Source: Hydrolagus affinis
Lineage: Eukaryota
Assembly: GCA_012026655.1 (NCBI GenBank)
Contig: JAAILG010001627.1
Span: 1 to 64,000 of the forward strand
Length of the DNA stretch: 64,000 bases
Direction of reading: 5' to 3'
Position numbers and translations under genes: made by a program. Numbering within the stretch: the first letter of the stretch is position 1; every line of letters starts with the position of its first letter. The notes below the pieces were generated by a model, which saw only the letters and a program-made list of their open reading frames with translations, had not been told where the DNA came from and searched no databases. Below, piece after piece: positions 12,491-54,399 of the stretch.

Positions 12491-12551
12491 ATATGGGGAA
12501 AGTTTTATTGCTTTTATTTATCTCAATATTTAACATGCCCTGCTCGGTTAG

Positions 12552-13900: not shown

Positions 13901-14149
13901 AAGTCATAGGTCAGTGTGTTGCCTGAGGTTTACAAAAGACACCCACAAAAGGCTGGAGAATAGATTATCTGTTGAGTGGATCGCAGAATTTAAACCATCT
14001 CATTCAGACGTCATGCTATGTTCTTCTTTCCAGCAATGTAACTTTGACATGCTTTTTGTGCATAACAATATTGGACATATGGTATGTCTTGTATATTTAT
14101 AAACTGTTTTGTACAAACCTGATCATAGATTCTTGTTGCTTTTTTTTAG

Positions 14150-14263
14150 AAACTTTCTTTCATATACAGCACACTGAATGACGCTTATAAGAAAATAGTG
14201 CAGGTGCTTAATACGGGGAGGAGACTGCTGGGGACCTTCTTTCGAGTGGCTTTTTATGGTCAG
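14150..14263 (+). CDS. DOCK11: DOCK11 coding exon
   Basis: tag acceptor, gtgagt donor. Encodes [38 protein letters not shown]. Confidence 0.93.
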
Positions 14264-15237: not shown

Positions 15238-15384
15238 AGTTTCTTTGAGGAGGAAGATGGAAAAGAATACATCTATAAGGAACCCAAATTGACCAGGCTT
15301 CCCGAAATATCCGAGAGACTGCAAAAACTTTATGGTGATAAATTTGGGGCTGACACAGTGAAAATCATCCAGGATTCTAACAAG
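15238..15384 (+). CDS. DOCK11: DOCK11 coding exon
   Basis: aag acceptor, gtatat donor. Encodes [49 protein letters not shown]. Confidence 0.92.
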
Positions 15385-15822
15385 GTATATTTTTTAATCA
15401 TGTTTTGCAGTGCAGACATATTAATTCTACACCTGCCCTTTTTAATGCCTGGAATTAGCAAGATAGTAAAAGTGAGAGACACATCCAAGCTTCAGAAAAC
15501 ATTTTTCTTCGCCTTTTTAGACTTAGCCTTGCTGGCATCCCAGCTAATCAGGAGTTAGCCATCTCGTAATATAAAACCAGGTATGTAAGATTAAAAAAAG
15601 AGTAGGAATTAGTGATCTTTCAATAGCCTTTTGTATCTTGTGTTTTCTTAGCATTCTCCTTGTAAGGAAAGCAAACTGATCATTATTTATGTGTGTCTTA
15701 ACTTGTTGCAAAATTATAAGGGTTATGTTCTTCTATTGATAGTAATTCAAGGGAGAAACTTGGCAAATTGAGTTGAAATATTACTATATTTTTAAGGTTC
15801 TAATTTCACTATTTCTTTTTAG

Positions 15823-16033
15823 GTTAATGCAAAAGACTTGGATCCCAAATATGCGTACATTCAAATTACATTTGTCATTCCCTATTTTGATGAGAAAGAA
15901 TTGTGTGACAGAAGAACGTATTTTGAGAAAAACCACAATATTTGCCGATTCGTTTTTGAGACTCCCTACACGTTATCTGGAAAGAAGCAAGGAGGGGTGG
16001 AGGAACAGTGCAAGAGACGAACCATTTTAACGA
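15823..16033 (+). CDS. DOCK11: DOCK11 coding exon
   Basis: tag acceptor, gtaggt donor. Encodes [70 protein letters not shown]. Confidence 0.94.
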
Positions 16034-17106
16034 GTAGGTACATGTCTATGACTAAACCTTAGAAGCTTGAAATACAAATCTACAGCTAAAGCTGTTAATT
16101 GCTGTGAGATATTCTATTGACACACTAACCATTGGTTCCATTGGTTACTAACTATATACTATTATTTGTTAACTGTATTTACTGTACATTGAAACCAGAC
16201 ATTGTATGCATTTTCTGAGTTTGACTGGATTGTATATTACCAGATTATTGCTGGCAAACATGACAAACTTGTCTAATGTCTGCCAAGTATAGCTGATTGC
16301 GTGAGAGCTGAATCAACCTACTGGAAAAACAACCTTCCATATCCTTTTGTTTCAGTCGCTGTAAGCATTGCCAACAGCATCACAAAAACTTTTACTTCTT
16401 TACAGATCTTGACTATCGTCTGTCCTAGATATGAGAGGTTTAGTTATTTTTAAGTATAGTAACATTTAGGGGTCAGCCAGGTGTCAGACACGAAAATTCA
16501 TTGCAATGCAGAAAAATATCTAGAGGGTACAGAGTTCGAAGTATGCCATCTAAACATGACATTTTCCCGGTATCTGGAACAAAATGCGCTATGACTGGAA
16601 ATATTCCATCTTTATGCGTGCTTATACCTCACAACAACACTGCAGATTCACTGAGATAACAGTTCTTTTTAGCCCAGGTACTGGCAGATGAGATGTACAC
16701 AAATATAGGTGATGGGTGAACAATGACACAGGTTGTCACAAATCAGAAATTTGCATCACACACAATGAACACTGTTTTGTCTCTTCCTCATTTTACTCAC
16801 CCTGTCTGGTTTTTCCCCTTATCTCTCAGGTGTCATTCAGCTTCTTTATCTTTTTTGTTTGCTCACATCCCTTCTTTCTACATAGGAGAAATGACCAAAA
16901 GTTTGGGATTTGTGTCTGTGTTGCTCTGAGCCATCTTTCTCTTGTTGTTGCAACACTTTGGCACATGCTGAAGTGGAGACAGAATATGATGGGTGGGCAG
17001 AGTGAGTGAGAAGAACCCATGGAAAGATCAGAAAAGCAGTTTAACTATCATCTTAACAAGTAGCGAAACTGTTGCAAAACAGTATTCCTCAACTGGCTCC
17101 CCACTC

Positions 17107-17140
<34 letters not shown>

Positions 17141-18035
17141 TGAATAAAGGCCCTATCCAATATAACTCTCATTAAGTTATACATACCAAACATTGCATGT
17201 TTAGTTATTGGCTTATGCTGACATAATTGATATTAGCATGGGCAGCAGTATTTAAAAACCAAAACAGTCAAAACAAAATTGGTCATTTTAATCCCACACT
17301 GTTTGTGGCACACTGCTGTGCGCAATTGGCTGGCATGTTTCGCCCACCACAATACACTGTAATTGCCAATTACAGTGTATTCTCTGAAGCGCTTTGGGGC
17401 GTCTAGGAGATGTGAAAAGAAGCGCTGTATCAAATGCAAGGATTATTATATTTAATAATATTAGCAAGATGGAGGTAGATCAGGGGGCTAGCTATTTTTA
17501 GGTCAGGATATTAAGGCATACAGTGCAAGGGCAGTAACTGGACTTGAGGTACAGATCAGCCATAATCTTATAAAATGGTGGAACAGGCTCAAGGGGCTGA
17601 ACAGCCTAGTCCTATTTTTATTTTTGTATTTGTTTTTTTGACGGTGAGCTTGAGAGAGAGAGAGAGGTGAGGTCATCCTGCATTCCCACTTTTGTTTGTT
17701 TTCCATTGAAACCATCTGATAAATGTACTGGTACCTGCTTGGAGGTTGAATAAGAAGAGTTTGGCTGTGAAGTCCCCTACCCAATTACTCACTGTCCAGG
17801 CTGGTTAGTGAAGAATGGTAACATGACTCTAACTTGATGTAAAGGGGTGCTGCTCTATGCTATGAAATGTCGCACATGCATTAAGGAGTGAAAAAAGAAA
17901 AGGGACCAGAAATGGTGCATAATACTTTGCCTAACACAATTGTTTCAAGAAGATTTTGAACCTTTTGTGCCTATTTAATGGTGAACTTTGTAACACCGCA
18001 AACTTACTTTCACCTGTTGTTGAAATTGCTTCCAG

Positions 18036-18226
18036 CAATACACACATTTCCATACGTAAAGAAGAGGATTGCAGTTATGTACGAACATCATGTTGACCTG
18101 AAACCTATTGATGTAGCAACTGATGAAATGAGGGACCGAACAGCAGAACTACAAAAACTGTGTGCCTCGAATGAAGTGGATATGATCCAACTACAACTTA
18201 AACTCCAGGGCTGTGTTTCAGTGCAA
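18036..18226 (+). CDS. DOCK11: DOCK11 coding exon (DHR-2 lobe C)
   Basis: cag acceptor, gtgagc donor. Encodes [63 protein letters not shown]. Confidence 0.94.
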
Positions 18227-19017
18227 GTGAGCGTAACAGTAACAATTTACATTTACATAACAAGTTTCACATTGCGAGGATGTCTCAAATGCTTTATACA
18301 GTTGAGTGGGAGCTGGAGCATATGATCTACAGATCTACAGATCTACCCAACCGATCAACAGAGGGTTGGGTGTGGGATGGGGGGGTGGGGGGAGGAGTAA
18401 GGTGACCAAAAGCATTATCATTAAGAAAGATTTAAAAAATGCTGAGGTAGGGTGGAGTTTGAGGCTGAGGAACTCGGATGGGGTTTCCACAGAGTGGGAG
18501 CAGAATGGCTGAAAGCCCACCTAGCAATGATAGGATAGATCAGACTGGAGCTATGAAGAGCCAGGGTCTGCTGAGTAAGGGGAACAGACGAGACAAAAGG
18601 ATTGCAGGAAATGACGGAGCTAGGTCTTGTTTAAGTGTTCGAATCAGACTAATTAATTCAAAAGTGAAAGATGCTTATCTTATTATCTTATTATCTTATT
18701 AAAGAAATTCAAAGAGAATGGTAAGTGGTTTTATGTGATGCCTGTGACTGCAAACCGATTTGCAGTAACGGAACAACAACATTGCATTTGTAAAGTGCCT
18801 TTCATGTCGGGAGGACGTCCCAAGACACCGAACAGTCGGGGATCAGTTCGGCAAAGTAATTAAGACCTTGAATACATTTCTTCTGATTTTTTTTTCATCT
18901 TTAACTTTACAAGTCTGCAAAAGCCAAATCTTTTCACTGCAAATTGCGGTTTACAGTATAGATGTGGTGTTTTGTCTTTAAGAAGAGGATGCAGTTTCAT
19001 CCTTGTATTTATTGTAG

Positions 19018-19118
19018 GTGAACGCTGGACCACTGGCTTATGCAAGGGCGTTCCTCGATGAACAAAAATCCAGCAAATATTCAAGCAAAAAAGTGAAGCA
19101 GCTAAAGGATGTCTTCCA
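19018..19118 (+). CDS. DOCK11: DOCK11 coding exon carrying the nucleotide-sensor valine (VNAGP)
   Basis: tag acceptor, gtgagt donor. Encodes [33 protein letters not shown]. Confidence 0.94.
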
Positions 19119-19312
19119 GTGAGTCAACGAAACATACTGTATTATCTTGATCAGGCATAATGGATATTCATAAATAGTCCGTGACTGTCGCTAGTGTCTG
19201 AAGATTAGAAAATATATTGGAAAGTTTCATAATTTGAGTGTTTGACTAATTGTGTTGAATCTTACAAGGAGAAAAGGAAACTGATATTCTCTCTTTTAAA
19301 AACCGTACCCAG

Positions 19313-19451
19313 GCAATTTGTTGCAGCCTGCAGCCTTGCTTTGGATTTAAATGAGCGTCTGATCAAGGAGGACCAGATGGAGTACCACGAAGGGCTAAAG
19401 TCAAACTTCAAAGACATGGTGAAAGAATTATCGGAAATAATCCACGAACAG
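19313..19451 (+). CDS. DOCK11: DOCK11 coding exon
   Basis: cag acceptor, gtcagt donor. Encodes [46 protein letters not shown]; HEGLKSNF is DOCK11-type as recalled. Confidence 0.94.
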
Positions 19452-21075
19452 GTCAGTGCTGGCATCTCTCCTGCTAACTGCAACAGGTGGAAGAAACCAT
19501 CTGGTGGGAAGAGAAATGGGCATATTCGTTTGCGTAAATAAATCCAAAGTTAATCGCCGGTTGAAGAATCTGGAGCATTTCCATTATCTCTCAGTTGACC
19601 AATTTCGCAATCTCACAATGGTGGAACGAGTAAATTTGGTGAAACTGAATTCAGTCTAACTGAAAAGTAATGGAATGCTGCAATCGGTCGGAATGCATGT
19701 AATAAACTCCGCACACGCCAGCCATCGATTCATGTCAATTTCAAGCACCTTATAGTGGGTATTCAACATTTTGCTTTTATCGGTTGACTTTTATGGGTAA
19801 ATTTATGAGGTTGCTTTCTAATTACCTCTGTTTTCCTTGACCATCAATGCATCCTCCTCTACTTTAGAATACCATGCAATTTAGGTGCAGATTTTGCTAC
19901 AAATACTGAGGTCAGCACTCACTAGTATGCCTGCTTGGGTTGGGGTGGAGGCAGGCCTGGCTGGCTTTACTGCTTTCCATTCTCTAACCAGTCGAGTGAG
20001 TAGATTTAATGTTTGTAACTTGTTGTCACAAATGTTTTTAAATCGCATTTTTAATATTTAATATAATCCTTGGAATGTTATTCAATTTCAACTTTGACTA
20101 GACTTCCTGCTGCCTGCAATAAACTTTAAGTGAACTGATCATAGCACATAGCATTTGTTCATAAATTAATAAATTTTGCTGACTAAACAACTTCCCTCAT
20201 ACCCAAACATTAATGTAATTGTTTAACACACTGCCGCCTTATTTGCATCTGCTTAAGAATTCAATCTGCATTTCGGATTTGTTGACAACAATGCACCAAC
20301 ATTAGGGATGATGACAGGGTATTCAGATCGCCAATTCTCTTGCATTTAAATCATTTTGTTTCATTTGTTTAACTGATTTTTGACTGTTCCTTACAAAAAT
20401 GGTTGGATGTTTCTGTTAATGTGTACTGTTTTCCTTTATTTCACGTATGCTCCCTTGTTATGAAGGACTTAATGGGGTAAATGTAATCTGCAATTTTATA
20501 TTTGAGATGTCATTTAGATTTACCAAATAATCTTCTGTATAAACTGCACCAATCCAAGCTTTCATCCCCACTCCCTAATTATTGACATTTTAGGAAATAT
20601 TGTATATGTGTGTGTATGGGTGGTGGTGGGGGGGGGGGCACCTTTTTTTCTGCATTGTTTTAAATGTTTTCTTCCTTTCTCTCTATCCCTGGGACATGCT
20701 GTAGCTCTGTGTGTGCTTCTGACTTTCCCTTCTACCTATAGTCTTTGGTTCTCTCTTGCTCTCTTTCTTTGCCTTTGTTTTTCTTTTTTTCTCCCCAATC
20801 TGTTGATTCCTTCTCTTTTAATGCTCCACCCAACATGAAATATATGTGAGCAAAAACACCTGCAATACTTTGTGACAATTTAAAATCTCTCTGCTTGATC
20901 TTTGAATAGTAAATTCATTCTCTCAAACTTGCCTCGGATGAATGGCTTTGTAAAGGTGTGGCTGATACACCGGTACAAAGCATGGCTGTTTTCAAGCTTT
21001 TGATAGACTTCAATCTTGTTTTTTTGTTTCTTTTTTTAAAAAAAAGCATTTTAACATTTTCCTTTTCTGATTAAG

Positions 21076-21201
21076 ATTTTCACAGAAGAAGATATCATGA
21101 AATCACAGCTGCGGAACTCGCTGTTTGTTTTTAGCGCCATCAGTGGAATGACTTCTGGTGCCTCAGTTCATGGTTCACCCAACGCCCCCTCGACTACCTG
21201 A
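21076..21201 (+). CDS. DOCK11: DOCK11 terminal coding exon to TGA
   Basis: aag acceptor. Encodes IFTEEDIMKSQLRNSLFVFSAISGMTSGASVHGSPNAPSTT*, similar to the DOCK9/11 C-terminal N(S/T)L(H/F)xFxAISG motif. Confidence 0.85.
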   Translation: MFTEEDIMKSQLRNSLFVFSAISGMTSGASVHGSPNAPSTT

Positions 21202-24299: not shown

Positions 24300-24680
24300 G
24301 GTTCGTTTCACTTTGCATGGCCCAAGGGGAGAGAGAGAGGTAGGAGGGCGACAGAAGACATGATCGAACAGGAGGGTCTTGAAGGAGGCAACGGAGGAAA
24401 CGGGGAGAATGGACTGGGATGGTGTTCCAGAGTATGGGGGAGAGAGGCTGAAAGCCCAGCCACCGATGTTAGGTGCATTGTGCAGTGAGTTTCCCCTCCA
24501 GCGAGGGTGGTACTTCAGCATTAACACGTCAACGGCAAAATCTGTAGGCGTCGGGTGGGAGACATGAAGCAGATGGAAGCCCACTGAATGGAGGGGCCAG
24601 GTGGGTTGATAGGGAGACAGCAGGTTGGAGAGATAGGAAGGGGTAAGGCCGTGAATGGCCTTGAAAGTGAGTAGACATGG
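24300..24680 (-). mobile_element. L2 3' fragment interrupted by a 67-bp non-L2 insert
   Basis: Translation LTFKAIHGLTPSYLSNLL...IGGWAFSLS; insert at 24485-24551. Confidence 0.75.
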
Positions 24681-25220: not shown

Positions 25221-25724
25221 GTCCTATTATCTTTAGGATCCCAACCGTTTTATAAGTGAACCTGGGTTCTAACTATCATGCAGTAAGGGTGGGAGGGGGG
25301 TGTCTAGTGTCTTGTGACTTGTCTGGTGAGGGGAGGGTGAAGGGGGAAGAGGGAGAAAATAGAGGGCAACTGTTTGCACAGAAGGTTTGAAAGTTGAGGA
25401 ACAAATGCATTCGCCCTAAAGGGGCCAAATGGAAAGCTGGTGATGATGTACTGTGCTGAACGCCCACAGATTTTGCCGTTGACGTGCTAGTGCTGAAGTA
25501 CCGCCCTCCCTTGAGGGGAAACTCACAGCTCACTGTGTGTAGTGTGTGTTAATCAGCGAGTTAACACTTCACAGCGCCAATGTCTCCAGTGAGTGTGGAT
25601 ATAACCGTGGTTTGATTGAGTAGAGCCAGTCCAGGCGGAGAGGTGGTAGTGGGGGAGAGAGAGAGAGAGAGAGATTGTAGATTACATTGGGTAGAGGGGT
25701 GGAGGAGAGAGGCGGATAAACGAG

Positions 25725-25818
25725 ATGATGTGCGGATTATTGAGTTTGGTGGTGCTTTTAATCTGCCTGTTCTGTCCGATAAATCTAACCTCAAGAGTCA
25801 GTAGTTGCAACAATACAG
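25725..25818 (+). CDS. IL13RA1: IL13RA1-like exon 1 (signal peptide)
   Basis: ATG to G|gtaagt. Encodes MMCGLLSLVVLLICLFCPINLTSRVSSCNNT, a hydrophobic signal peptide; phase 1 matches exon 2. Confidence 0.8.
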
Positions 25819-28747
25819 GTAAGTTCTTCTCCTTTGGTTTTGTTTTGGTGGAGGGGCTGGGGCTTGGGGTTTGATTGTTATTATTTATTGTTTTAAGATC
25901 ATTTCGTTTTCTCCTATGTCTTAATGTTTCGGTGTTCTTTAAACTTTTTTTTAAAAAGAAGGGGAAGGAGGGTTGAACTTGTTAGTTTCTAAAGTACTCA
26001 GTGCTGATTCACACACACACACACACATACACAGTACTGTATATTCTTGTTATCATTGCCAATGATACATTTTTTGATAATATGATGACTGAGTTGTCGC
26101 TTTGAAGTCAGGCAGGTACAACACACACACACACACACAATCACATACAACAAACACAAGTTAATCAGGAGAGGCAGACATTCGTTCACATCTCTGCTCC
26201 TGTTTTAAAAGTTTAACACGAAGAAGATAAGTTTACCACACCATGTAAAGTTTATTTATATCTATCTATATACATATATATATATAACCCTAACCCTATA
26301 TATAAATAATAATCCTTGCATTCGATGTAGTGCTTTCCACGTCTTCTAGACGTCTCAAGGAGCTTCACGGAATACACTGTAAGGTGAATTGACTGTATAA
26401 TTGTGGACGAAACTGCAAGTTCTAAAGTTGTGTAAAACCGCATTTGACCTCCAGTTGGTGCACTTGAGGAATGTGGACTTGATGCCCCCAAGTGTCGGTC
26501 TAGCTCGGGTTGGTAGCCCTCTGGCTCGGAAGGTTATAGTTCAAACCCAGCTTTCAATTGTTAGTCAATTGGCGGATCACTTTTCTCAGGGTAATAATTC
26601 CTTTGAACAATAATAGTAGTTTGCTTACTCAATCCACGACTGTTTGTGGATTACACCCCTGGGTGTAATTGGCGGCCAAGTTTCTCCCACAAATTATACA
26701 GACAATTCACTTCACTGTATATTCTGTGAAGCGCTTTGAGACTTCTCAAAGATGTGATAATATGCTACATCCAATGCAAGGATTACCGCTGTAGAGCATG
26801 AGGTTTTGTGCCTCACATCGCCTTGTGACGTCGTCCTGACGTGAAAGGCACTCTATAAATGTAATTTTGTTGTTGTTTGTTGCTGTGGGATGGGGTTTGG
26901 TGCAGGTGAGGATGCAGGTGGCAGATTTCTGGATTAGTTGGTCCTTGTGGATAATGGAACTGAGGAGACCAGAGGGGAGTAGATTTGAAAACTCATGTGG
27001 TTACAAAGGTGTGAATAAGACTCCAATCGGTTTCAGAAAGGGGTGTAAGCAGATCATGTGTCAGAGGTGAAGGAAAGCCAGGGTTGACGAAGGAAAAACT
27101 GGGAAACAAAATGCCCAGGTTGAACAAGTCTTCCAGAAAACCTAATCGTTCACTTTACTGCTGTTTGATGAACATTGCCCTGCTAAATCGGCTGCAGTGT
27201 TCACCTACAAATACAGTCACTACATTGCACAGACTTTGTGAAGTACTCTGAAAGACACTAAGGATTGTTATTATTATATCTACTATTAAGCTTCCAAAAC
27301 ACTTGGTTAAAATGTGTCTTAAATGCAACTGATATCTATCCACATCTCTTCGGTGAGGTGAGTTAGGACGGATTTTAGATATGCCATACAAAAGGTCAAG
27401 AGATCACAAGGGCACGGTTATGAAGGATAATTAGAAAAGATACACTAAAGTATTTCTTTGCTGACAAGCTAATGACCAGCTTGAATGGGTCAACAGAAAG
27501 GGTGTTTAAAGTGATGGAGTGGACAGAAGGTATCTCGAAACATCCTTGATGCTGGTATGCAAGCATCAAGGTACTAGTAGTAATAATAATAATACTAAAA
27601 ATAACAACCATTGCATTTGACATAACATTTTATTTGGAAACATCTCAGAATACTTCACAACGTTATTCTTATTCTTTAGTGACTTGATGGGCCGAATGGC
27701 CTCCTTTTGTGCAGTACAATTCTATGATTCTGTGCAGCCGATATGTGCACTGCCAACCAAACAGCCATCAAAATGAATGTTTGTTGGCCCGGACAGCAGG
27801 GGGAATCCAGTATTGTGAAAGAAAGTCCCTGAAGAATGCTGCCTGCATTCAATTCATGGGCTCGATTCCAGGAAGGGTGAAAGCTTGGGCAAGTTTCCTT
27901 AATCCACATGCTTAATAATAATAATCCCTCAAAAAAATAAGAAATTGGTCATATCAATCCACAACTGTTTGTGGGACACTGCTGTGCTCAGTTGGCTGCC
28001 ACGTTTCGCCCGCAAATATACAGTCAGTTCACTTTCCAATATATTCTGTGAAGCGCTTTGGGACATCCAGATGATTTGAAAAGCACTCTATCAAATGGAA
28101 AGATTATTCTTATTTATGGTCTTGCCACAGAAGGAAGCTGCCCAACCCTCTAGAGGCAGGGCAGGGAGCAATGAGAATGGCAAACAAAAACACTCATTAG
28201 ACAAGCTCGGCCTCTTCACTCTTGATCTCAAAACGAGTTCTCTCAGAGGGGACTTTAACAAAGTGCATACGTGCAAGGTGCATAATGGTATTGCGAAAGT
28301 AAGCCCAGAACATTAATTTGGGTTGTACTGAGCCAGGAGAACAAAAGACGTCTCAAAGACACAAGAAAGCGCTATATCAAATACAGGAAATACTATTTTT
28401 ATTATTAAAAGAGCATGGCTTTATCTGCAGAGGGAAATTGCAGGACAGACATCAGAACAGTTTAAGCAGGAAATGTAGTTAAGGAAATCATACTCTTTTT
28501 TTAAAAACAAAAAGCTTGATGCTTTGGTGGGAAAACATAGAATGTGTGTTCTGGAAGCATGAGATCAAATGAGCCAAAGACAATAATAATAATCAAATGA
28601 GCTGAAGAAACTTCTTGGTCTGAACCGATCTAGAGTGGGGTTTTATGGACTTGTGTAAAATCTTAGAAAATGACTGTTGGCAGTAACAGGTTAGAACTCG
28701 AGCAATGAGCCCAGCAGAGTGACGAGGGCAGTTCTGTGATTAAGTGT

Positions 28748-28852
28748 GTTCACTTTCCTTTCTCCATAGTTGCTGCCTGACTTGCTGAGTGTTCCCATCA
28801 ATTTCTGTTTTTGTTTCAGATTTCCAGCATCTGTAGTATTTTGCGTTTTTGT
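28748..28852 (+). mobile_element. Penelope-like terminal repeat fragment
   Basis: Homologous to 42810-42877 and 48909-49040. Confidence 0.6.
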
Positions 28853-28989
28853 TAGAGTGACGTGGAACAGAGTGAGAATTCTGTTTTTAGGCATGAGTGG
28901 AGAGTGGGAATTCAGTGTAGATGGGGAAAGGAGGTGTAGGTGAGAATTTATTTCGATTTCCTTGTAAAGGAGAAGCAAAACCAGCAAGA

Positions 28990-30470
28990 GCCTAAACAAA
29001 AGGTTACATTCCCAAGGCAGTGGGTGTTTAGGTATTAAGTAGAAGCTTGAAAGGGATAATGACAACACAGGTAGTATGCATGTGGGAATCAATGACATAA
29101 GAAAGAGCAAGAAGGCGGTCCTACTAAGGGAGCTAGGGGAAAAAAATCAAAAAAACGCAGGACCTAGAAGGTGGTGGTCTCCGGATTGTTACCTGAGCCA
29201 CGTACAAATTGGCATAGAGACAAACAGGTCAGGGAAATCAATGTGTGGCTGAAAGTTTGGTGTGAGAAGGAGGAGTTCCATTTCATAGGACACTGACTCC
29301 AGTACTGGGGCAGGAGTGAGCTGTACTGCTGGGAAGGGCTGCACCTGAACAGGGCTGGGACGAAGGTTCTAGCAAAAAGAATAAATAGGACTCTTGAAAA
29401 GGCATTAAACTGGTAGGGGGGTTGGGGGCGAGGGGGCACGAGTGCGAACAATAACAAAAATATAATGCATAATCTCCCTCATAATGCACCATAGGAAAAG
29501 GAAAGATAATAGAAAGTCATCACAAAAGGTGTAACAAATCAAAAATAATAATAATCCTTGCATTTTATATCTATATATATATAATACTATATTATATATA
29601 ATACTGTGTGTGTCTATATATGTATAAATATATATTATATGACTTGGATGAAGGAATAGAAAGTTTTATATCCAGGTTTGCAGATGACACTAAGAACGGA
29701 GACTCAGTAAGTAATGTAAGTGGGATTAGAATGTTACGAAAGGACCTAGACAGATTCAGTGGCCAAAGTTGTGGCAGATGGAGTTCAATGTAGGGAAGTC
29801 CACTAAGGACCGAAAAATAATAAGGAAGAATATTTTCATAATGGAGAGAAATTAGGAGCTGTGAAGGAGTAAAGAGATTTGGGTGTCCATATCCACAAAT
29901 CACTTAAAAAAAAAACTAGTTCCCAGGTGCAAAATGTAATCAGAAGGACAAATGGAATGTTGGCCTTTATCTCAAGGTGCCTGGAATACAAATGGGAAGA
30001 AATGATGCTTCAGCTGTATGGAGCATTAGTCAGACCCCACCTAGAGTACTACATTCGGTTTTGTGCACCTCAGGAAAGATATATTGGCCTTAGAGGGGAT
30101 GCAGCACAGGTTCACCAGAATGTTACCGGTCCTAAAAGGGTTAAATTATGAGGGAAAGCTGCGTAAACTTAGATTGTATTTCCTTGAGTTTAGGAGGTTT
30201 ATGGGTGGTTTGATTGAGGTATTTAAGACGATAAAGCGATTTGATAGGGTAGATAACGAGAAGCGATATCCCCTGGTGGGGGAATCCAAAACAAGGGATT
30301 AATAGATTACTGTATTATTGTTTCCCTTTCCAACATAGTCTTAGAGCCAGGCCATTCAAGAGTGAAATCAGGAAGCATTTTTTTCACTGAAACGGTTGTA
30401 GAAACGTGGAATTCTCTCCCCCAAAAGGTCATGGATGTCGGATACATCCACACCTTCAAGAGCAAGATTA
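28990..30470 (+). mobile_element. Internally deleted CR1 LINE: ORF1 SGNH-esterase remnant followed by ORF2 RT remnant
   Basis: ORF1 part translates HVGINDI...VVVSGLLPEPR...EGLHLNRAGTKVLA (~29079-29380). ORF2 part translates ISRFADDTK...LVRPHLEY...VVETWNSLP (~29630-30470). Contains stops and frameshifts. Confidence 0.85.
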
Positions 30471-30716
30471 TAATAATCTTTGCATTTGATATCGTGCTTT
30501 TTACATCTTCTAAACATTTCAAAGTGCTTCACAGAATATATTGTAAAGTGAATTGACTGCATAGATATGACCGAAATGCGGCAGCTAATTGTGCACAGCA
30601 GTGTCCCACAAACAGTTGTGGATTGAAATCACCAATTTTTTATTGAGGGATTATTAAGCATGTGGTGTAAGTAAACTTGCCCACGGTTTCACCCTGCCTG
30701 AAATCGAATAATAATA

Positions 30717-31129
30717 CAGTAAAAGCTTGGTTATCCTGCACCCAACCAACCAGAATGCTCAACCAACATATCAGATGTGTATCTCCCAATACAATTCACC
30801 ATTCCAGCAATCGGATCTCATAGCGGAGCCATCTGGCACACTCCCGGTATGCTCACTTTGCGCATGTGTGCGCATGCGCACTTATTAAACTTACAGAACG
30901 CTGGAATTTTTATTTTACTGATCATTTTACCGAGTGTGCTGGAATGCTTTATTGGTAAGTATCCATACAATATTCTGTTATTATTTAGTCTATTATTAAT
31001 ATGGTATGTTTTAAAATAAGTAAATTATTTGTGTAGGATTTTCGGCAACTTGCCGCTCGAATATCCGGCATATTTAATTAACCGGCAACAGTCAGATCCC
31101 GAGGGTGCCGGATAATGAAGCTTTTACTG
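30717..31129. mobile_element. Non-autonomous Tc1/mariner (pogo/Tigger-like) MITE, 413 bp
   Basis: 27-bp TIRs (CAGTAAAAGCTTggTTATCCtGCACCC, 3 mismatches) with TA on both flanks. Confidence 0.85.
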
Positions 31130-31130
31130 T

Positions 31131-31450
31131 AATAATAATAATCCTTGCATTTGATATAGCGCTTTTCACATCTTATCGATGTCTTAAAGTGCTTCACAGA
31201 ATATACTGTAAAGTGAATTGACTGTATATTTGTGGGCAAAACGCATAACCAATTGCGCACAGCAGTGTCCCACAAACAGTCGTGGATTGAAATGACCAAT
31301 TTTTATTATTGTGGGGTTTTTTTTGGATGGATTATTATTAAGCGTGTGGAGTAAGGAAACTTGCCAAGGTTTCGCCCTGATCTGCCTGGATTCGAACACA
31401 GGTCTCACGCTTGTATGGCTAATGCTCTAACCACTGATGTACAGGAGCTC
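31131..31450 (-). mobile_element. Full-length tRNA-derived SINE
   Basis: Reverse complement of head (A/B boxes), body and (TTA)n tail. Confidence 0.9.
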
Positions 31451-31778
31451 CACAGGTTGATACATTTTTGGTAAGTCAGGATATTAAAGGATATCAAGAG
31501 AAAGCGAGGAATTGAAAGGATTTGTAGAGGTACAGATCAGGCATGATCTAATTAAATGGCAAACAGACTCAAAGGGCTGATTGGCCTACTCCTGTTCCTA
31601 TGTTCCTAACCTGTTCATTTACCCCATTGTTTGGGCTGAACTACTGAAAGTTGATTATTGCCCAATCTTCTACCCCTAATGGTCTCTATTGTGATTGGTC
31701 TCTGTGCAACTCTTGGATTACTTTTAGCAAGAGTCAGACTCTGATGTGCTCAAATTGAATGTTTTGATTGTGTTACAG

Positions 31779-31909
31779 TGCTCCTCCCTTACCCCAGTGA
31801 CTTGAAATTTACATTACGGGGACTTTGTGTTGTTACGTGGATCTGGAAAGCTGAGAAAAATCTACCCCGATATGAAAGCCAGCACAAATATGGCTCCGCC
31901 GATTGGATT
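31779..31909 (+). CDS. IL13RA1: IL13RA1-like exon 2 (D1, first half)
   Basis: cag acceptor, gtaagt donor. Encodes LLPYPSDLKFTLRGLCVVTWIWKAEKNLPRYESQHKYGSADWI; compare human PPVTNLSVSVENLCTVIWTW. Confidence 0.88.
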
Positions 31910-32005
31910 GTAAGTACAGATAGTAAAACATTTATGTGCCTTTCCTGTTTTTATCAAAGTATGTACAGTACACTAAACGTCTGTTGTTTCCCTGTGCCTC
32001 TTTAG

Positions 32006-32159
32006 GAGACTAAAAGAAATGCACAAGCGAACCGTACAGAAGTGATGAATCTCAATGAAAGAATTAGCTTCAGAGTCAGAGTGATAACAAAAGTGAACTC
32101 CACTGATAATAATTGCAATGAAAGCAATTGGAGCCAAATAGACATACCACCACCATTAG
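32006..32159 (+). CDS. IL13RA1: IL13RA1-like exon 3 (D1, second half)
   Basis: tag acceptor, gtaaga donor. Encodes ETKRNAQANRTEVMNLNERISFRVRVITKVNSTDNNCNESNWSQIDIPPPL; compare human LNERICLQV...ISPPEG. Confidence 0.88.
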
Positions 32160-33206
32160 GTAAGACAAAGCTTGTGATTAATAATAACACTAATAATCAA
32201 GTTAAAAAAAAATGTACTGTATTACTAAAATAGAGGTTATGAAGGTTCTGGGTTGTTCTCTGCTGAGCTCAGCTGCAATAGCAATGAAGGAATACTGCAA
32301 TGGACCTCATTGTTCCTAGGTTTAGCAAAGAAAAATAATTCAGTTTCTGCTCCAGTTTCTATTAAAAAAAGAAAAGATACATAAATGTTTTACTATCTGT
32401 ACTTACAACCCAATCGGCGGAGCCATATTTCTGCTGGCTTTCATACCAATAACAATATCAATCAATTAAAACTTATATTTATATAGTTGAGAGGACACTA
32501 ACCCTATCCCAGGTAGTACTATATGTACAGTACTCTTTGCAGATGTATGGCATAGTTCTATTAAAAAGAATCTGTAAACACTGCCAGCAAGTGTAAGAAG
32601 AATGAGTGTTCAGGCAAGTTACTGGAAAGCTATCGTTGTTGTTACAAATCCCCTACATTAGTCACTTTCACTACAAGATAAGACAAGATATTGTGGGCAG
32701 AACTTAAAAAGTACAGCTTACTTACTGAGGTTTCAGTGGCTGCCAGTTTGACTTTATAGGTCATTGTCTTCCATGGAACAAGTTGACTTTTAGGTGATGC
32801 AATAGCTTTGGGATAAGGCACTATTTTAAACTATTGAGAGAAATGTTAGTTATGGAGGAATAATATCAGCATTAACACAAACACAAGATTTTAATGCATT
32901 GCAAAAGTGGACTTTATTCAAGAACTTAAGAAATCTCGAGGGTGTGATCTATACATTTACATTATCATTGATTTGCATTCTTCCCTTTTTGTAAAGGGAG
33001 AATAGAATAGTACTTGCAATTGTGTAATTAGCATAAAATGAAAATGGTTTCAATTAATCCTGTCATTTTGAAACGCAGACAATTCTTGCATTAGCTCTAT
33101 TTGTAAGTCTGCATTTTTGACAGCCTTTTGATTTGCTTGTTGGTCTTTCCCAGGGCTGATTTGAAACCCTGGAACATATAAATAAAATTACAACATTCAC
33201 CCTTTG

Positions 33207-33513
33207 GAGCTCCTGTATCTCAGTGATTAGAACACTCGCCTTACAAGCATGAGACCTGTGTTTGAATCCAGGCAGATCAGGGCGAAACCTTGGGCAAGTT
33301 TCCTTACTCCACACGCCTAATACCGGTAATAATAATCCCCCCAAAAACACAATAATAAAAATTGGTCATTTCAATCCACAACTGTTTGTGGGACAATTGG
33401 CTGCCGTGTTCTGCCCACAAATATACAGTCAATTCACTTTACAATATATTCCGTGAAGCGCTTTGAGACATTGATAAGATGTGAAAAGCGCTATATCAAA
33501 TGCAAGGATTATT
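33207..33513 (+). mobile_element. Full-length tRNA-derived SINE
   Basis: gagctcctgtatctcagtgattag...gtttgaatccaggc...aaatgcaaggattatt. Confidence 0.9.
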
Positions 33514-33600
33514 CTTACAATAAACTGCTTTGAAATGCTGCTTCCTGATTTTTGCAACTTTTCAATCTTTGCTCCATTTTCTATAAAATTTCACTTGCAG

Positions 33601-33721
33601 GCAAGCCTGAGACTGCAGTCAGAAATGTTGAGTACACTTTGTATAACTATGAATACATAAATTGTACCTGGGACTTTGGGAAGAAAGCACCAGCGAACAC
33701 TGTATATCGGTTACAATACTG
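33601..33721 (+). CDS. IL13RA1: IL13RA1-like exon 4 (D2, first half)
   Basis: cag acceptor, gtatga donor. Encodes GKPETAVRNVEYTLYNYEYINCTWDFGKKAPANTVYRLQYW, with the CxW motif. Confidence 0.9.
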
Positions 33722-33818
33722 GTATGAAACTATGTTTTGTTCGCAATTGATTTAATTTAAATGATTTGAAAGTCTTAAAAGTCATCTGGTGAGGATTAAA
33801 GTACATTTGCTGTTGCAG

Positions 33819-34012
33819 GCAAAGCGACGCGGAAGGCATTCAGAATTGTACAACCTACATCTGGAAGCAAGGCAAGGTTGTTGGTTGCCATCTTGAGAAA
33901 GATAAATTTAATCGTGAATTGGACTTAAACATTTGCATTGGACCGAAGCCTCCAGAAAAAAAGCCTCCGGAAATAAAGTCATACTACTATACATTACATA
34001 GTCAAGAGTTTG
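33819..34012 (+). CDS. IL13RA1: IL13RA1-like exon 5 (D2, second half)
   Basis: cag acceptor, gtgagt donor. Encodes QSDAEGIQNCTTYIWKQGKVVGCHLEKDKFNRELDLNICIGPKPPEKKPPEIKSYYYTLHSQEF, containing conserved Cys3 and Cys4. Confidence 0.88.
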
Positions 34013-35181
34013 GTGAGTTGTAAAGTCTCTCGTTATGACACATTGATAAGACATTAAAATCAATTTCTTAAGTTGCCTTCTCATTAGCAAGAGAGAAAAC
34101 ACCTTTCAGTAACTGGATATGCACAAGATGCTGAATGGGTAGAAGCAACTAATTATAATCCCTAAAAAGAAAACATATACACACACACACACTGCTGTGC
34201 ACAATTGGCTGCCGCGTTTCATCCACAAGTATACAGTCAATTCACTTTAAAGTACATTCTGTAAAGCACTTTGAGATGTTTAGGATATGCGAAAAGCGCT
34301 ATATCAAATGCAAGGATTATTATTATTAAGCAATTGATTAAGACACTTCATCTCGTGAGTATTCACTTTAAATACAATTCACAGCAGTGAAATGAATGTC
34401 TATGAACTCGTATCTGTACAGTTCCACAGAACAAAACCACCTACGAGGGTTTACTAAACTGGTAATTTCACTTTCAGAGACTGTATTAGAAATGAGAATT
34501 CTTGTCGGAGTTGATTTTAATAATGAGATTAAAGATGCCTTGAATTTATTTCTCATCACTAATGCCTTGACTTATCTAAACAAGTCTCCAGTCATAATGA
34601 GAGGAGAATAAAAATACACATCACTAGGAAATCATTTAATAATGTGTGAGATTGACTCAGTGGCCAGTACTCATGCCTCTGAGTCAGTAGGTTATGGATT
34701 CAAGCTTCACATTGGGAATACATAGTTAATGGAATAATCCTATGCAGTGCTAGTGGATGTTGCATTGTCAGAATCTTTAATACTGTACTACAATAACTAA
34801 GTTGCTTTTCAAATAAATAAAAATAAACCCTTTAAAATAGAATTAAAATTTGTTCCATTTTAATTCTCTCTCTTTGTTTAATAGAATCATAAAACGTTTA
34901 TAGCACAGAAGAGGACATTTCAGCCCTTTCAGTCCTCTTCTGTGCTATGTGTTTCTCACATTCACTTGCTCTTTTTCCCATACACTTCACTGTTGATTTA
35001 TTTTCTTTTTAAATGCTATTATAGATTCTGTTTCCACTTCTATTTATGGTGAAGCATTCCATATTCTACCCAATCACAAATTACAAACAAATCTCTTTTA
35101 TCTTTTGTATGAATTAAATATGTCGATTTGGGGTAATTTAGATTAAAAAAAAGTAAAGGCCCTGTTTCTCTTTTTTTGCAG

Positions 35182-35330
35182 TGAAACTCAGCCCACCAAG
35201 CAACTTAACTGTATCTAGGAATAATCAGGGACTTGCCATAAAGTGGAACATCCCTCCAACTTTGAAAGAACGTTGTGTTGATTACAACTTGAAAATGAAG
35301 ACTGACAACAATGATTGGGAGGAATTTAAT
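35182..35330 (+). CDS. IL13RA1: IL13RA1-like exon 6 (D3, first half)
   Basis: cag acceptor, gtgagt donor. Encodes VKLSPPSNLTVSRNNQGLAIKWNIPPTLKERCVDYNLKMKTDNNDWEEFN. Confidence 0.9.
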
Positions 35331-35436
35331 GTGAGTCCCCCTCACTGACAGCACTGTGATGAATCAAATATCCAAGTGGCTCTAAGAAATATAAATAAAT
35401 CTTCTATTAACTCCTTTTTCTCTCTCTTTCTTTAAG

Positions 35437-35575
35437 ATTAGCGAGAAGACAGAACTACACCATCCCGTCAGAAATCCTGAAAACCATCATTATACTGTTA
35501 AAGTGCGAGCAATATTTACTAATATGTGTGGAACGAATGGGAAGTGGAGTGACTGGAGCAGCAAAGCAACTTTTG
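35437..35575 (+). CDS. IL13RA1: IL13RA1-like exon 7 (D3, second half, WSxWS)
   Basis: aag acceptor, gtaaa donor. Encodes ISEKTELHHPVRNPENHHYTVKVRAIFTNMCGTNGKWSDWSSKATF; WSDWS at 35545-35559. Confidence 0.92.
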
Positions 35576-36142
35576 GTAAAAAGCCAACTCTATAAACATA
35601 GCAGATGCAGTTGGTTTCTGTGTCCCAGAGCTACACTGGGGAATGGTGGAAAAAAAAGCTGTCTAACAACTTATCCTAGAAAATGTAAATATTGGGTAAT
35701 AGACAGGATCACACATGTTTTGATGATGCACTCCGATGGTTAGATACTCCCTCCTTTTGTGAACACATATAGAGGCTTTTTTCTTACCAGAGTTTAGGGT
35801 AGGTGTTTTGTAAGTATTCTTGCAATTGGGACAAAGGAACATCATAACTTTCCATATTTTTCTTATGACAGTACATAACTATCAAGTCAGCCATACAAAG
35901 TTATGTATATTGAATCAGATGAACTCAACAACAACAAGATTACATTTATAGAGCGCCTTTCAGGTCGGGAGGACGTCCCAAGGCGCTGAACTTAAGGCAG
36001 TTTAGGTAGTCACTCTATGATCCTCAAAAGCTATTCTGTAAAATATATTACTTGCTATCACAACTAGTTAAAAGTGTGATTTGGTTATGTGGTTCCATCT
36101 TTTCTGGTCCGCATGAATATTGAATCTGAAATACTCTTATAG

Positions 36143-36236
36143 GAAAAGAATGCTTCAATTGGAGAATTCCTTTCTTCATTACTGTTGTCATATTTGTGGC
36201 AATCGCAGCAATACTGCTCCTCACCTACTTAAAACG
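36143..36236 (+). CDS. IL13RA1: IL13RA1-like exon 8 (transmembrane)
   Basis: tag acceptor, gtaagt donor. Encodes GKECFNWRIPFFITVVIFVAIAAILLLTYLKR; compare human IVLLLYLKR. Confidence 0.92.
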
Positions 36237-36261
36237 GTAAGTACTTTAATGATAATAGTAA

Positions 36262-36729
36262 CTAATAATCCTTGCATTTGATACAGCGTTTTTCACGTCT
36301 TGTAACAACTTTGATTTATATAGTGCCCTCCACGCCGGACGGCGTCTCAGACCACTTAATTCAATGTCTCAAAGAGCGTCACAGAATATACTGTAAAGTG
36401 AATTGACTATATACATGCGGGCGAAACGCAGAAGCCAATTGCGCACAGCAGTGTCCCACAAGCACTTGTGGAATTAAATGACCAANNNNNNNNNNNNNNN
36501 NNNNNNNNNNNNNNNNNNNNNNNNNNNNNNNNNNNNNNNNNNNNNNNNNNNNNNNNNNNNNNNNNNNNNNNNNNNNNNNNNNNNNGGGAGGGATTATTAT
36601 TAGGCGTGTGGAGTAAGGAAATTTGCCCAAGGTTTCGCCCTGACCTGCCTGGATTCGAACACACGTCTCCCCAGCTTGGTCTCCCCAGCTTGCAAGACAA
36701 GTGCTCCAACCACTAAGCCACAGGAGCTC
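36262..36729 (-). mobile_element. tRNA-derived SINE spanning an assembly gap, with a nested L2 tail
   Basis: Tail starts at 36262 and head ends at ~36729; L2 tail at ~36304-36357. Confidence 0.8.
36486..36585. other. Assembly gap (100 N)
   Basis: Run of N. Confidence 1.
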
Positions 36730-37016
36730 CATATGATATGAATGTTCTATCATATGACAATTTGCAGCATCTGCAGTGAATACAATAAGCAAAGCTCTGG
36801 CAATCTCCAGCCCGCAAGATTTAACTGATAAACATAAACCCAGATTTGTCTCGACCACTACAACAACAACAACAACAAATTACATTTATAGAGCGCCTTT
36901 CACGTCGGGAGGACTAGTGATAGGCTTTCAAAACTCATATGATTCCTTAATCCTAAAACTGACTTTATTGGGTGTGATTCATTAAGTAATGCTCTCATTT
37001 GTTTCTTATGTTTAAG

Positions 37017-37101
37017 GCTCCAGATTCTGATACTTCCACCAATTCCTGACCCTGGAAAGATGTTGAAAGGCATGTTTGGGGAGCAAAATGTAGATTTTTC
37101 G
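37017..37101 (+). CDS. IL13RA1: IL13RA1-like exon 9 (Box1)
   Basis: aag acceptor, gtaggt donor. Encodes LQILILPPIPDPGKMLKGMFGEQNVDFS; compare human LKIIIFPPIPDPGKIFKEMFGDQN. Confidence 0.93.
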
Positions 37102-37934
37102 GTAGGTCTGCTCTGCAGTTTTCAGGACCATACTAACTTATTCTGGAATTCAGGGCACAGCGTTCTTCAGGGCTGACAAATGAATTCCTGTAATGTTGCC
37201 CAAAAATCGGAAATCATATTGCAATACAAGGGAGTGGGGGGACAATATTCTGTCATTTTGCATCTGGTTCGAGAAACATAGACCCCATATTGAAGTGAAG
37301 TATAAGAAAAATACCTGCTGGGTTTTCAGATCGATCGCTTCCTGCATAGAGAAGGCATGCGCAGTGTGAATGAAGTGCTATATTGTGTATCTTTGCAGCG
37401 TGATATCAGCAATAGCTATTACAAATATTCATAGCACACAGAAAGAGGCCAGACAGAGTATGCACTGTTATAAAGGGACCTTTACTAAACCAGGACATCT
37501 TAGCACAGGGTCTCTGTATCTCACAATACCATTGAATTTGAGCAACTGGGCCTAACCTGCCTAATCGGTAAAAGTTAATATCTCATTCAAAGGGAACATG
37601 GATTTGGGTCGAAGCAGATCATTGCTGAGAAACATTTAAACAAACAAACAAATATATATATAGAGAGAGAGCCCAATATAGGGCCTAAAATCTAGAAATT
37701 GAAAACCCTTGCCTCTACATCCAAACATTAACGCACAAAGAGGAAGAAAAACATTTACTGCCATCTGTTGGTCTACGCCAAGGTCAGTTTAGCGAAACAA
37801 TCACAACATTATTGCGCCCTACATCCAGGGTAGAATTTTGGTTCGTTTATCCCCATTCATCACTCAACAAAGTACAATAATACAGTAGATTTTTAATGAG
37901 AGTGACTCAGCTGCATTTTTGTTTACTTTTATAG

Positions 37935-38147
37935 GCATGGATCATTCAGCCTAAAGAAAATCTGGTGTCAAAACCTGAAGAGGAAGTAACTTGTCTTGTC
38001 CTGACGGTGGAGAAGATCAAGGTGCAAGAAAAGGAAGGAAAGTTCAGTGGACATGAGATGCTGGAGGAACAGACTCTGCCTGTTTGTGTTGATGAAGCCA
38101 CCACTGTGGATGATAACTACATGTTTTATAACATGGTGACTTTGTGA
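37935..38147 (+). CDS. IL13RA1: IL13RA1-like exon 10 (cytoplasmic tail to TGA)
   Basis: tag acceptor. Encodes AWIIQPKENLVSKPEEEVTCLVLTVEKIKVQEKEGKFSGHEMLEEQTLPVCVDEATTVDDNYMFYNMVTL*. Spliced CDS totals 1374 nt (457 aa). Confidence 0.85.
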   Translation, partial: AWIIQPKENLVSKPEEEVTCLVLTVEKIKVQEKEGKFSGHEMLEEQTLPVCVDEATTVDDNYMFYNMVTL

Positions 38148-38699
38148 TATTAACAATTGCTCTGTGCATTTCTTTTCACCGGAGGTGTCGTTGCAGCTTT
38201 TTGACTTGCGAGCCAGAAATTTACATTTCATGTACTGTTCTGTCAGTGAGCCATTGTTGTTTGCATTATCTGGCAATTAGCATTTCCAACTGTGCACTTG
38301 GCAAATTCGGATTAGTTTGGACTTTAGACATAATCTCTTAACTACGTCAGTTAAGGTCAGAAGCGAGCAATGGGAGAGTCAAGGTCTACAGTGGGTAGTT
38401 TGATTCTTCTTGATATGGTTTATTTACAACCTGTTCAGTGTGTCTGATTTGTAGGAATGTTTTATCAGTCGTTTTCAAGAAGTACTACTGATGTCAAAGA
38501 GACTGTGCAGTATTGCACATGGGCTTCTTAATCTGATGTCTATGGTAGCGATTTTGATGCAGTTGTTGATTTCATGCCTTGAACCGACATTGGCATTTCA
38601 GAAAAAAACTTACAACAGTTGCTCACAACAAAGCACAGCCTACGCAGTGTCATAAAAATACTGCCATACTCGGAGGCCATACTCCTTGGCTCTCGTCAA

Positions 38700-54374: not shown

Positions 54375-54399
54375 GTAAGCGAGGCCCTGATCTCACACT

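What the first reader, a model, noticed from the sequence alone, without database searches (positions are those of the whole stretch)
31871..32445. Antisense copy of the IL13RA1 exon-2 end and 5' splice site in intron 3: a possible RNA switch that removes the D1 domain
Seen: 32379-32445 is the reverse complement of 31871-31937 at 65/67 identity, with weaker similarity for ~17 nt more. The source covers the last 39 nt of exon 2, the GTAAGT donor and the start of intron 2 (28 intronic nt in all), and is not TE sequence. In pre-mRNA this forms a ~67-bp stem that buries the exon-2 donor and puts all of exon 3 in a 441-nt loop. Exons 2+3 total 285 nt, and the exon 1 and exon 4 junctions are both phase 1, so skipping both is in frame and deletes D1 cleanly. 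Established: IL-13Ralpha1 D1 is needed for IL-13 binding much more than for IL-4, and the related IL3RA has a splice form lacking its N-terminal domain. Inference: a kinetic, structure-based splice switch could tune ligand specificity. It could also be a recent neutral duplication.
Basis: partly seen in the sequence, partly recalled or inferred. Interest (0 to 1): 0.75.

Follow-up and report, generated by a model that had tools for sequence, protein, structure and literature searches.

The report
Backwards exon-end copy in IL13RA1 intron
A chimaera-like fish's IL-13 receptor gene carries, in intron 3 and shared with two related species, a 67-base backwards copy of its own exon-2 end and splice donor joined to a jumping-gene tail; it is likely a tolerated insertion scar that is predicted to pair with the original in the RNA, but nothing yet shows that it switches splicing.

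Summary
32379-32445 is the reverse complement of 31871-31937 (65/67), only two copies are found in the assembly, and contigs of two related species carry it, so it is no artefact. The gene is an intact 457-aa IL13RA1-like receptor. Since copying, 5 of 6 differences break pairs, none is compensatory, and the copy changes no slower than the flanking intron. Similar unique local inverted copies occur at about 3 per Mb here, mostly beside repeats, so tens covering a donor are expected by chance. The predicted stem buries only the exon-2 donor, which points to delayed or retained intron 2 (premature stop), not loss of D1; in-frame skipping is true of every domain of this gene. The one RNA run laid had no reads on exons 2-4, so splicing is untested. 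The scan noted like cases in other cartilaginous-fish genes. Verdict: real, probably a tolerated scar; D1 switch about 6%.

The parts
31871..31937 (+). Source arm: last 39 nt of exon 2, donor ATT|GTAAGT (GT at 31910) and first 28 nt of intron 2
   Evidence: no difference listed in organisms A or B
32379..32445 (-). Antisense copy in intron 3, 65/67 to the source
   Evidence: present in A (32391 T>C, 32393 C>G) and B (32381 A>G, 32419 G>A)
32363..32378 (+). Left flank, 12/16 complementary to 31938-31953: inferred priming microhomology
32446..32496 (-). 3' tail fragment of a high-copy SINE-like repeat ((ATTG)n-type tail) abutting the copy; firm for 32451-32486, by eye to 32496 and perhaps to about 32532
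   Evidence: very high contig depth in that bin in A and B; SINE label rests on the repeat's anatomy and on recall
32357..32368 (+). Left copy of candidate target-site duplication TTCTATTAAAAA
   Evidence: 48 of 5000 and 29 of 5000 null trials score as high; found post hoc
32556..32567 (+). Right copy of candidate target-site duplication
32497..32555 (.). Rest of the inferred insert, origin unresolved (partly like the repeat, one 14/15 match to intron 2)
31779..31909 (+). Exon 2, first half of D1
   Evidence: PF18001 positions 2-28, E 0.024, below cut-off
32006..32159 (+). Exon 3, second half of D1, lies in the predicted loop
   Evidence: PF18001 positions 50-91, E 0.0011, below cut-off
25725..38148 (+). 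IL13RA1-like gene, 10 coding exons, 457 aa, open frame
   Evidence: 324 of 457 residues identical to Callorhinchus milii XP_007890565.1; 9 exon matches on this contig
31133..31460 (-). SINE in intron 1, inverted partner of 33197-33517
   Evidence: 339 nt, 84%
33197..33517 (+). SINE in intron 3; with 31133-31460 it brackets exons 2+3; absent from organism D's contig

Best explanation
The copy is likely a tolerated scar of one retroelement insertion or break-repair event in intron 3, and the gene likely still splices mostly to the full-length receptor. Inferred steps: a broken plus-strand end at 32378 paired through 12 of 16 bases with 31938-31953 (on its own strand or on the nascent pre-mRNA), was extended by 67 nt across the exon-2 donor, then continued on the 3' tail of a SINE, and the ends were rejoined, leaving a short duplication. 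Shown: the anatomy, presence in three species, uncompensated decay. Predicted: a 67-bp stem that buries the donor at equilibrium. Inferred: it seldom wins, because the donor is made about 470-495 nt before its partner bases, the 96-nt intron 2 and its acceptor are complete 374 nt before the copy begins, and splicing of intron 3 removes the antisense arm.
For: Copy abuts a repeat tail within 5 nt; rough chance 0.6% from 639 tail bins in 1.05 Mb (post hoc). Microhomology 12/16 and candidate TSD. Four new differences in the copy in A and B against 1.98 expected from flanking intron (P(>=4) 0.14, P(<=4) 0.95); 1 of 4 keeps a G.U pair (neutral share 0.33), 0 of 4 compensatory, one is a CpG change. 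The two shared mismatches are best placed in the exon: the copy reads Gln as in C. milii where the exon has His67; weaker for Ile75. 6 of 127 local inverted pairs in 1.79 Mb of other contigs are unique in the sample, 0 of 6 with a donor-like motif, 5 of 6 with one arm inside or beside an interspersed repeat. A second such copy at 24476-24551 interrupts an old repeat and is not at an annotated splice site. D1 is as conserved against C. milii (64/95) as D2 (74/105) and D3 (67/96). Template jumping and locally templated sequence at insertion sites are described for human L1 (PMC10830420; PMC11702581; passages).
Against: No RNA evidence either way. The duplex stays very strong in all three species (-108.6, -100.9, -102.0 kcal/mol), and a long stem tolerates mismatches, so four changes cannot exclude function. 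The copy has been kept in 3 of 3 species where the place is covered. A stem over 185 nt masks a donor in vivo in Drosophila CG33298 (PMC2724269), and stems over 50 nt can act in vivo (Solnick and Lee as cited in PMC2275289). No empty-site orthologue was seen, so insert borders and TSD are unproven. The lay hid 127 rows; each contig has one unlisted difference and A has four unlisted gap letters. The known L1 cases place templated bases mostly at the reciprocal (5') end, here they lie at the tail end. The chance estimate assumes 150,000-200,000 donors.
Confidence: 0.7

Rival explanations
1. The stem forms often enough to delay intron 2: intron 3 is spliced first or intron 2 is detained, and some transcripts are lost to nonsense-mediated decay, damping receptor level (by accident or under weak selection).
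For: Only the exon-2 donor changes accessibility (0.64 to 0.12 at 37 C, 0.49 to 0.11 at 6 C). The donor matches the consensus at 6 of 9 positions and the only other 6-of-9 site scanned (31959) would leave a 47-nt intron. Retention gives a stop after 106 aa. Donor-sequestering kinetic duplexes exist in human genes (PMC12519161, passages).
Against: Partner bases appear 491-496 nt after the donor; longest unbroken run 30 bp, 15-21 bp in A; no constraint on the copy; no reads to show it.
Confidence: 0.17
2. One reading: the stem causes joint skipping of exons 2+3 and a regulated receptor without D1, tuning ligand preference.
For: Skip is in frame, 95 aa removed. IL3R-alpha SP2 lacks its N-terminal domain (PMC5785977, passages). 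C. milii has several IL-4/13 genes (PMC4690019).
Against: Exon-2 acceptor and exon-3 donor stay as open as without the copy. All three domains are phase-1 modules. 0 of 31 database proteins of this family (26 cartilaginous fish, 5 coelacanth) are exon1>exon4 forms (whether those species have the insert is unknown). No clear IL-4 or IL-13 orthologues in these fishes. The D1 need for IL-13 over IL-4 is recalled; searches gave no passage for it.
Confidence: 0.06
3. The copy acts as an intronic editing-complementary sequence: ADAR edits the exon-2 end or the donor.
For: Exon-plus-downstream-intron duplex is the layout of the GRIA2 Q/R site (PMC7045468, search listing only; details recalled). The shared A.C mismatch lies on A31907, where editing would give Ile75Val.
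Against: A31907 has a 5' G, a disfavoured neighbour (recalled). 10 of 12 exonic A's would recode, two of them Tyr to Cys. The copy is unconstrained. No RNA reads on exon 2.
Confidence: 0.04
4. If a D1-less or circular product exists, the 339-nt inverted SINE pair that brackets exons 2+3 causes it, not the 67-nt copy (not exclusive with the best explanation).
For: 31133-31460 / 33197-33517, 84%, the best flanking pair of any exon of the gene; geometry fits loop-out skipping by inverted Alus (PMC13019027, passages).
Against: [quoted passage not shown]
Confidence: 0.1
5. Origin only: a replication template switch or polymerase-theta templated insertion made the copy independently of the SINE tail beside it.
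For: Fold-back on the same strand gives the same sequence; SD-MMEJ makes inverted templated insertions (PMC7407515, passages); two baseline copies sit in the middle of SINEs.
Against: Copy ends within 5 nt of the tail end, the place where reverse transcription starts; candidate TSD encloses both pieces.
Confidence: 0.25
6. Assembly artefact.
For: Fragmented assembly (245,464 contigs) with a perfect duplicate either side of an N gap elsewhere in the window.
Against: Single contigs of organisms A and B span source and copy, with their own substitutions.
Confidence: 0.01

Closest known systems
Non-LTR retrotransposon insertions with locally templated sequence or template jumps (human L1: PMC10830420, PMC11702581, PMC2912911; passages read)
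   Same: Truncated element end joined to nearby genomic sequence, microhomology at the primer, candidate short TSD.
   Different: Here the local piece lies at the element's tail end and covers a splice donor; the element is a fish SINE; RNA or DNA template cannot be told apart.
SD-MMEJ / polymerase-theta templated insertions (PMC7407515, passages)
   Same: Inverted copy of sequence near a break, primed by a short imperfect repeat.
   Different: 67 nt copied from about 440 nt away, followed by a repeat tail.
Donor-masking RNA stems: Drosophila CG33298, human MAPT exon 10 (PMC2724269), GAK exon 7 and BRSK2 exon 19 kinetic duplexes (PMC12519161)
   Same: A downstream intronic arm predicted to pair with a 5' splice site.
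   Different: Those are conserved or detected in cells and tested by mutation or oligonucleotides; this one shows no conservation signal, spans a whole exon and has no usable alternative donor.
Inverted Alu loop-out exon skipping (PMC13019027)
   Same: Inverted repeat around exon 3; the SINE pair around exons 2+3 is a direct analogue.
   Different: One arm of the 67-bp stem is the exon end itself, so it masks rather than brackets.
IL3R-alpha SP2 isoform lacking the N-terminal domain (PMC5785977)
   Same: Same receptor family; the hypothetical product would be of this kind.
   Different: No such isoform was seen for this gene; the passages read give no RNA-structure cause for SP2.

Membership tests
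IL13RA1 (class I cytokine receptor alpha chain with N-terminal D1) | D1-D2-D3 ectodomain, WSxWS, transmembrane helix, Box1 tail | tested here: met
   (WSDWS, PPIPDP in the model; motif names recalled); weak Pfam hits per exon
IL13RA1 (class I cytokine receptor alpha chain with N-terminal D1) | Closest relatives are annotated IL13RA1 | tested here: met
   324/457 to XP_007890565.1; 19 of 21 hits carry an IL13RA1-type name
IL13RA1 (class I cytokine receptor alpha chain with N-terminal D1) | Orthology against IL13RA2 / IL5RA by tree and synteny | tested here: inconclusive
   No tree built; best PDB hit of the C. milii protein is IL-13R alpha2 (6e-34) before alpha1 (7e-23); DOCK DHR-2 exons upstream fit DOCK11-IL13RA1 synteny (recalled)
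Retroelement insertion with locally templated sequence | Element 3' tail at the junction | tested here: met
Retroelement insertion with locally templated sequence | Target-site duplication | tested here: inconclusive
   12/12 repeat, null 0.6-1.0%, post hoc
Retroelement insertion with locally templated sequence | Empty site in an outgroup | tested here: inconclusive
   no listed piece of organism D covers the place
Functional donor-masking RNA structure | Stem covers the donor in folding models | tested here: met
Functional donor-masking RNA structure | Arms conserved or co-varying | tested here: not met
   4 changes against 1.98 expected, 0 compensatory; small numbers
Functional donor-masking RNA structure | Alternative product seen in RNA | tested here: inconclusive
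   no reads on exons 2-4 in X17
Functional donor-masking RNA structure | Disruption and compensatory rescue change splicing | not testable with these tools
   needs a minigene
Editing-complementary sequence | A-to-G differences in RNA within the duplex | tested here: inconclusive
   no coverage

The most novel reading that the evidence does not exclude
A SINE's reverse transcriptase primed on the gene's own nascent pre-mRNA and wrote an antisense copy of the exon-2 donor into intron 3; chimaeras kept it as a speed- or temperature-sensitive gate that, helped by the flanking SINE pair, yields a D1-less or down-regulated IL-4/13 receptor, one case of a general route by which retrotransposition creates splice switches in cartilaginous fishes.
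Probability: 0.07. Interest if true: 0.72.

Novelty: new member of a known kind. Interest (0 to 1): 0.25.

Why it matters
As a scar it is a clean, dated example of local templated copying tied to a SINE end, and shows that a strong donor-covering stem can be tolerated when its second arm is made some 470 nt late: a natural test of co-transcriptional commitment. If it does steer splicing, it would show retrotransposition building a splice switch in one step in an immune receptor of the most basal jawed vertebrates.

Tried and rejected
Organism D: no listed piece over the insert. Word-based protein search with exon 5 found nothing; PDB search with exon 5 found nothing. Rfam on 31000-33600: one chance-level SNORD43 match, E 0.089, below gathering score, rejected; it gave no tRNA match for the SINE head, so the SINE label is from anatomy and recall. 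Origin of 32497-32555 unresolved. One search returned 0 through a script fault and was redone. The baseline pair on C2300 counted as unique but proved to be repeat-derived and dropped out; the 6 remaining pairs were checked only against the sample, so some may be low-copy transposon ends. Paper searches for a published account of this element or of such copies in IL13RA1 (0 papers with 5 of 6 terms; nothing on it in the listing) found none; the library lacks most subscription papers. No supplements were read. In-frame skipping as evidence: rejected as generic. Assembly artefact: rejected.

Full report
Observation. 32379-32445 is the reverse complement of 31871-31937 at 65 of 67 bases; with the flank the pair is 83 nt at 93%. 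The arm has two places in the 1.11-Gb assembly G000 (lower bounds). The gene model has ten coding exons, 25725-38148, 457 aa without a stop; exon 2 is 31779-31909, intron 2 is 96 nt, exon 3 is 32006-32159, exon 4 starts at 33601. Exons 2 and 3 match the two halves of PF18001 weakly. The protein is 324 of 457 identical to Callorhinchus milii IL13RA1 XP_007890565.1 and much less like shark proteins, which points to a chimaera-like fish. DOCK-family DHR-2 exons lie upstream; DOCK11-IL13RA1 synteny is recalled. Against: the C. milii protein's best PDB match is IL-13R alpha2, and I built no tree.

It is real and shared. I laid 4 of 20 listed runs. One contig of organism A spans 31600-32484 and one of organism B spans 31840-32486, both through source and copy. 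No difference is listed in the source arm. The copy differs at 32391 and 32393 in A and at 32381 and 32419 in B. Three of these four break a pair, one gives G.U, none is compensated; a neutral share of 0.33 would give wobbles, and flanking intron 3 predicts 1.98 changes (P(>=4) 0.14). The window's two mismatches are not listed as different in A or B, so they are likely shared. Read in the exon frame the copy has Gln where the exon has His67 and C. milii has Gln, so the exon likely changed after copying; for Ile75 (copy Val, C. milii Glu) the same is weaker. In all, 5 of 6 differences break pairing. Limits: the table hid 127 rows, each contig has one unlisted difference, A has four unlisted gap letters, and the numbers are small; the duplex stays at -101 to -109 kcal/mol. 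Organism D gave no piece over the insert, but its contig lacks the SINE at 33197-33517 (217 letters for 554).

Directly after the copy, 32451-32486 matches four other loci at 92-100% and about a dozen places in 1 Mb. In those loci the match is the end of a repeat that continues on one side only into the SINE body common in this window, with an (ATTG)n-like tail on the minus strand (the SINE label is from anatomy and recall, Rfam gave no tRNA hit). A tail within 10 nt of a given end has a rough chance of 0.6% (post hoc). The 16 nt left of the copy pair at 12 of 16 with 31938-31953, and TTCTATTAAAAA stands at 32357-32368 and 32556-32567 (48 of 5000 and 29 of 5000 null trials score as high). The inferred insert, about 32379-32555, is local antisense copy, SINE tail and a 59-nt rest of unclear origin. 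The simplest single history: a plus-strand end at 32378 annealed 425 nt upstream, on its own strand or on the unspliced nascent RNA, was extended 67 nt, and moved on to SINE RNA at its 3' end. Human L1 ORF2p copies DNA and RNA templates from short primers and jumps templates (PMC10830420, passages); new L1 insertions can carry sequence templated from nearby DNA (PMC11702581, passages); template jumping and TSD models are laid out in PMC2912911 (passages); SD-MMEJ gives inverted templated insertions without any element (PMC7407515, passages). These cases put the extra bases mostly at the reciprocal end, and I have no empty site, so the single-event origin is inferred.

How unusual. In 1,787,900 bases of other long contigs there are 127 local inverted pairs (at least 40 nt, 85%, 20-5000 nt apart); 6 of 127 are unique within the sample, 3.4 per Mb (95% 1.2-7.3), about 3,700 per genome (1,400-8,100); 0 of 6 hold a donor-like motif. 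With an assumed 150,000-200,000 donors, 28-37 (10-80) would cover a donor by chance. This is an upper-leaning figure, since some pairs may be low-copy transposon ends. In 5 of 6 one arm lies in or beside an interspersed repeat, one of them near a SINE-like tail as here; the sixth is beside a simple repeat. A second case lies upstream of this gene: 24476-24551 copies 25460-25535 (88%, two places in G000) and interrupts an old repeat. The scan's own notes list like cases in APCDD1, MOB1B, TMPRSS6 and an adaptor gene of other cartilaginous fishes (unchecked, and selected by readers who look at exons).

What the RNA would do. The stem dominates the fold. At equilibrium the exon-2 donor is 0.12 unpaired with the copy and 0.64 without (0.11 and 0.49 at 6 C), while the exon-2 acceptor, exon-3 acceptor and exon-3 donor do not change. 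A blocked donor leads most directly to intron-2 retention (stop after 106 aa) or exon-2 skipping (stop after 33 aa); skipping exon 3 alone stops after 95 aa; only the double skip keeps the frame, and that needs two open sites to be ignored. Exons 4+5 and 6+7 are phase-1 modules too, so the frame fit is no evidence. Timing works against the stem: first copy base 469 nt after the donor, partners of +1 to +6 at 32401-32406, intron 2 complete 374 nt before the copy starts; removing intron 3 takes the arm away (inference). For the stem: a box 185 nt away masks a donor in Drosophila CG33298 (PMC2724269, passages), donor-sequestering duplexes act as kinetic switches in human genes (PMC12519161, passages), and artificial stems over 50 nt of perfect pairing act in vivo (Solnick and Lee, second hand in PMC2275289); the longest unbroken run here is 30 bp. 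An editing role is possible in geometry, with an A.C mismatch on A31907, but 10 of 12 exonic A's would recode. The 339-nt SINE pair around exons 2+3 is a better fit for a double skip, yet 8 of 8 internal exons have some such pair (PMC13019027, passages). None of this could be tested: X17 has no reads on exons 2-4.

Biology. D1 is as conserved as D2 and D3 against C. milii (64/95, 74/105, 67/96). 0 of 31 database proteins of this family are exon1>exon4 forms; four are N-terminally incomplete models. IL3R-alpha SP2 lacks its N-terminal domain (PMC5785977, passages). Clear IL-4 and IL-13 orthologues are limited to mammals and birds (PMC4905449, passages); C. milii has several IL-4/13 genes (PMC4690019, passages). 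That D1 matters more for IL-13 than IL-4 is recalled; two searches and a look into PMC13605598 gave no passage for it. PMC7274943 and bioRxiv 2025.02.02.635956 were read as passages and added nothing decisive.

Verdict. Real, shared by three close species, likely a tolerated insertion scar (0.7); a measurable delay or retention of intron 2 is the next most likely (0.17); a regulated D1 switch about 0.06. New member of a known kind; interest 0.25. No published account was found in searches, which do not cover most subscription papers.

Noticed in passing
window 24476-24551 and 25460-25535: Second unique local inverted copy (76 nt, 88%): sequence 190-265 nt upstream of the receptor's ATG copied backwards into an old LINE-like fragment; two places in G000.
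   Followed up: partly
window 31133-31460 and 33197-33517: Inverted SINE pair (339 nt, 84%) bracketing exons 2+3; the second SINE is absent from organism D's contig.
   Followed up: partly
window 54586-54756 and 54858-55028: Identical 171-nt copies on both sides of a 100-N gap, likely a scaffolding artefact.
   Followed up: no
window 56156-56285 and 56504-56633: Local inverted pair of 130 nt at 95%, 218 nt apart, partly repeat-like; possibly a small element with terminal inverted repeats.
   Followed up: no
window about 3800-21200, + strand: 3' exons of a DOCK-family gene (DHR-2 lobes A, B, C by Pfam); DOCK11 by recall.
   Followed up: partly
window about 54380-54430, + strand: Short open frame that by recall looks like the first coding exon of an STK24/STK26-type kinase; the contig ends at 64212.
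   Followed up: no
window 33946-33978: 15-nt tandem duplication inside exon 5 adds five residues to D2 relative to C. milii.
   Followed up: no
window 32003-32009: Exon-3 acceptor is a tandem TAG-GAG (NAGNAG); organism A has 32008 G>T, which removes the second AG.
   Followed up: no
G000 C40 (L114-L118 joined, 11290-11394 / 11908-12013) and C1300 (L078-L082 joined, 15829-15883 / 16407-16457): Unique local sequence copied backwards into the middle of nearby SINEs (106 nt at 96%; 55 nt at 87%).
   Followed up: partly
G000 C4206:22585-22734 and C33634:6775-6897: Weak matches to the D2 exon, likely paralogous cytokine receptor genes.
   Followed up: no
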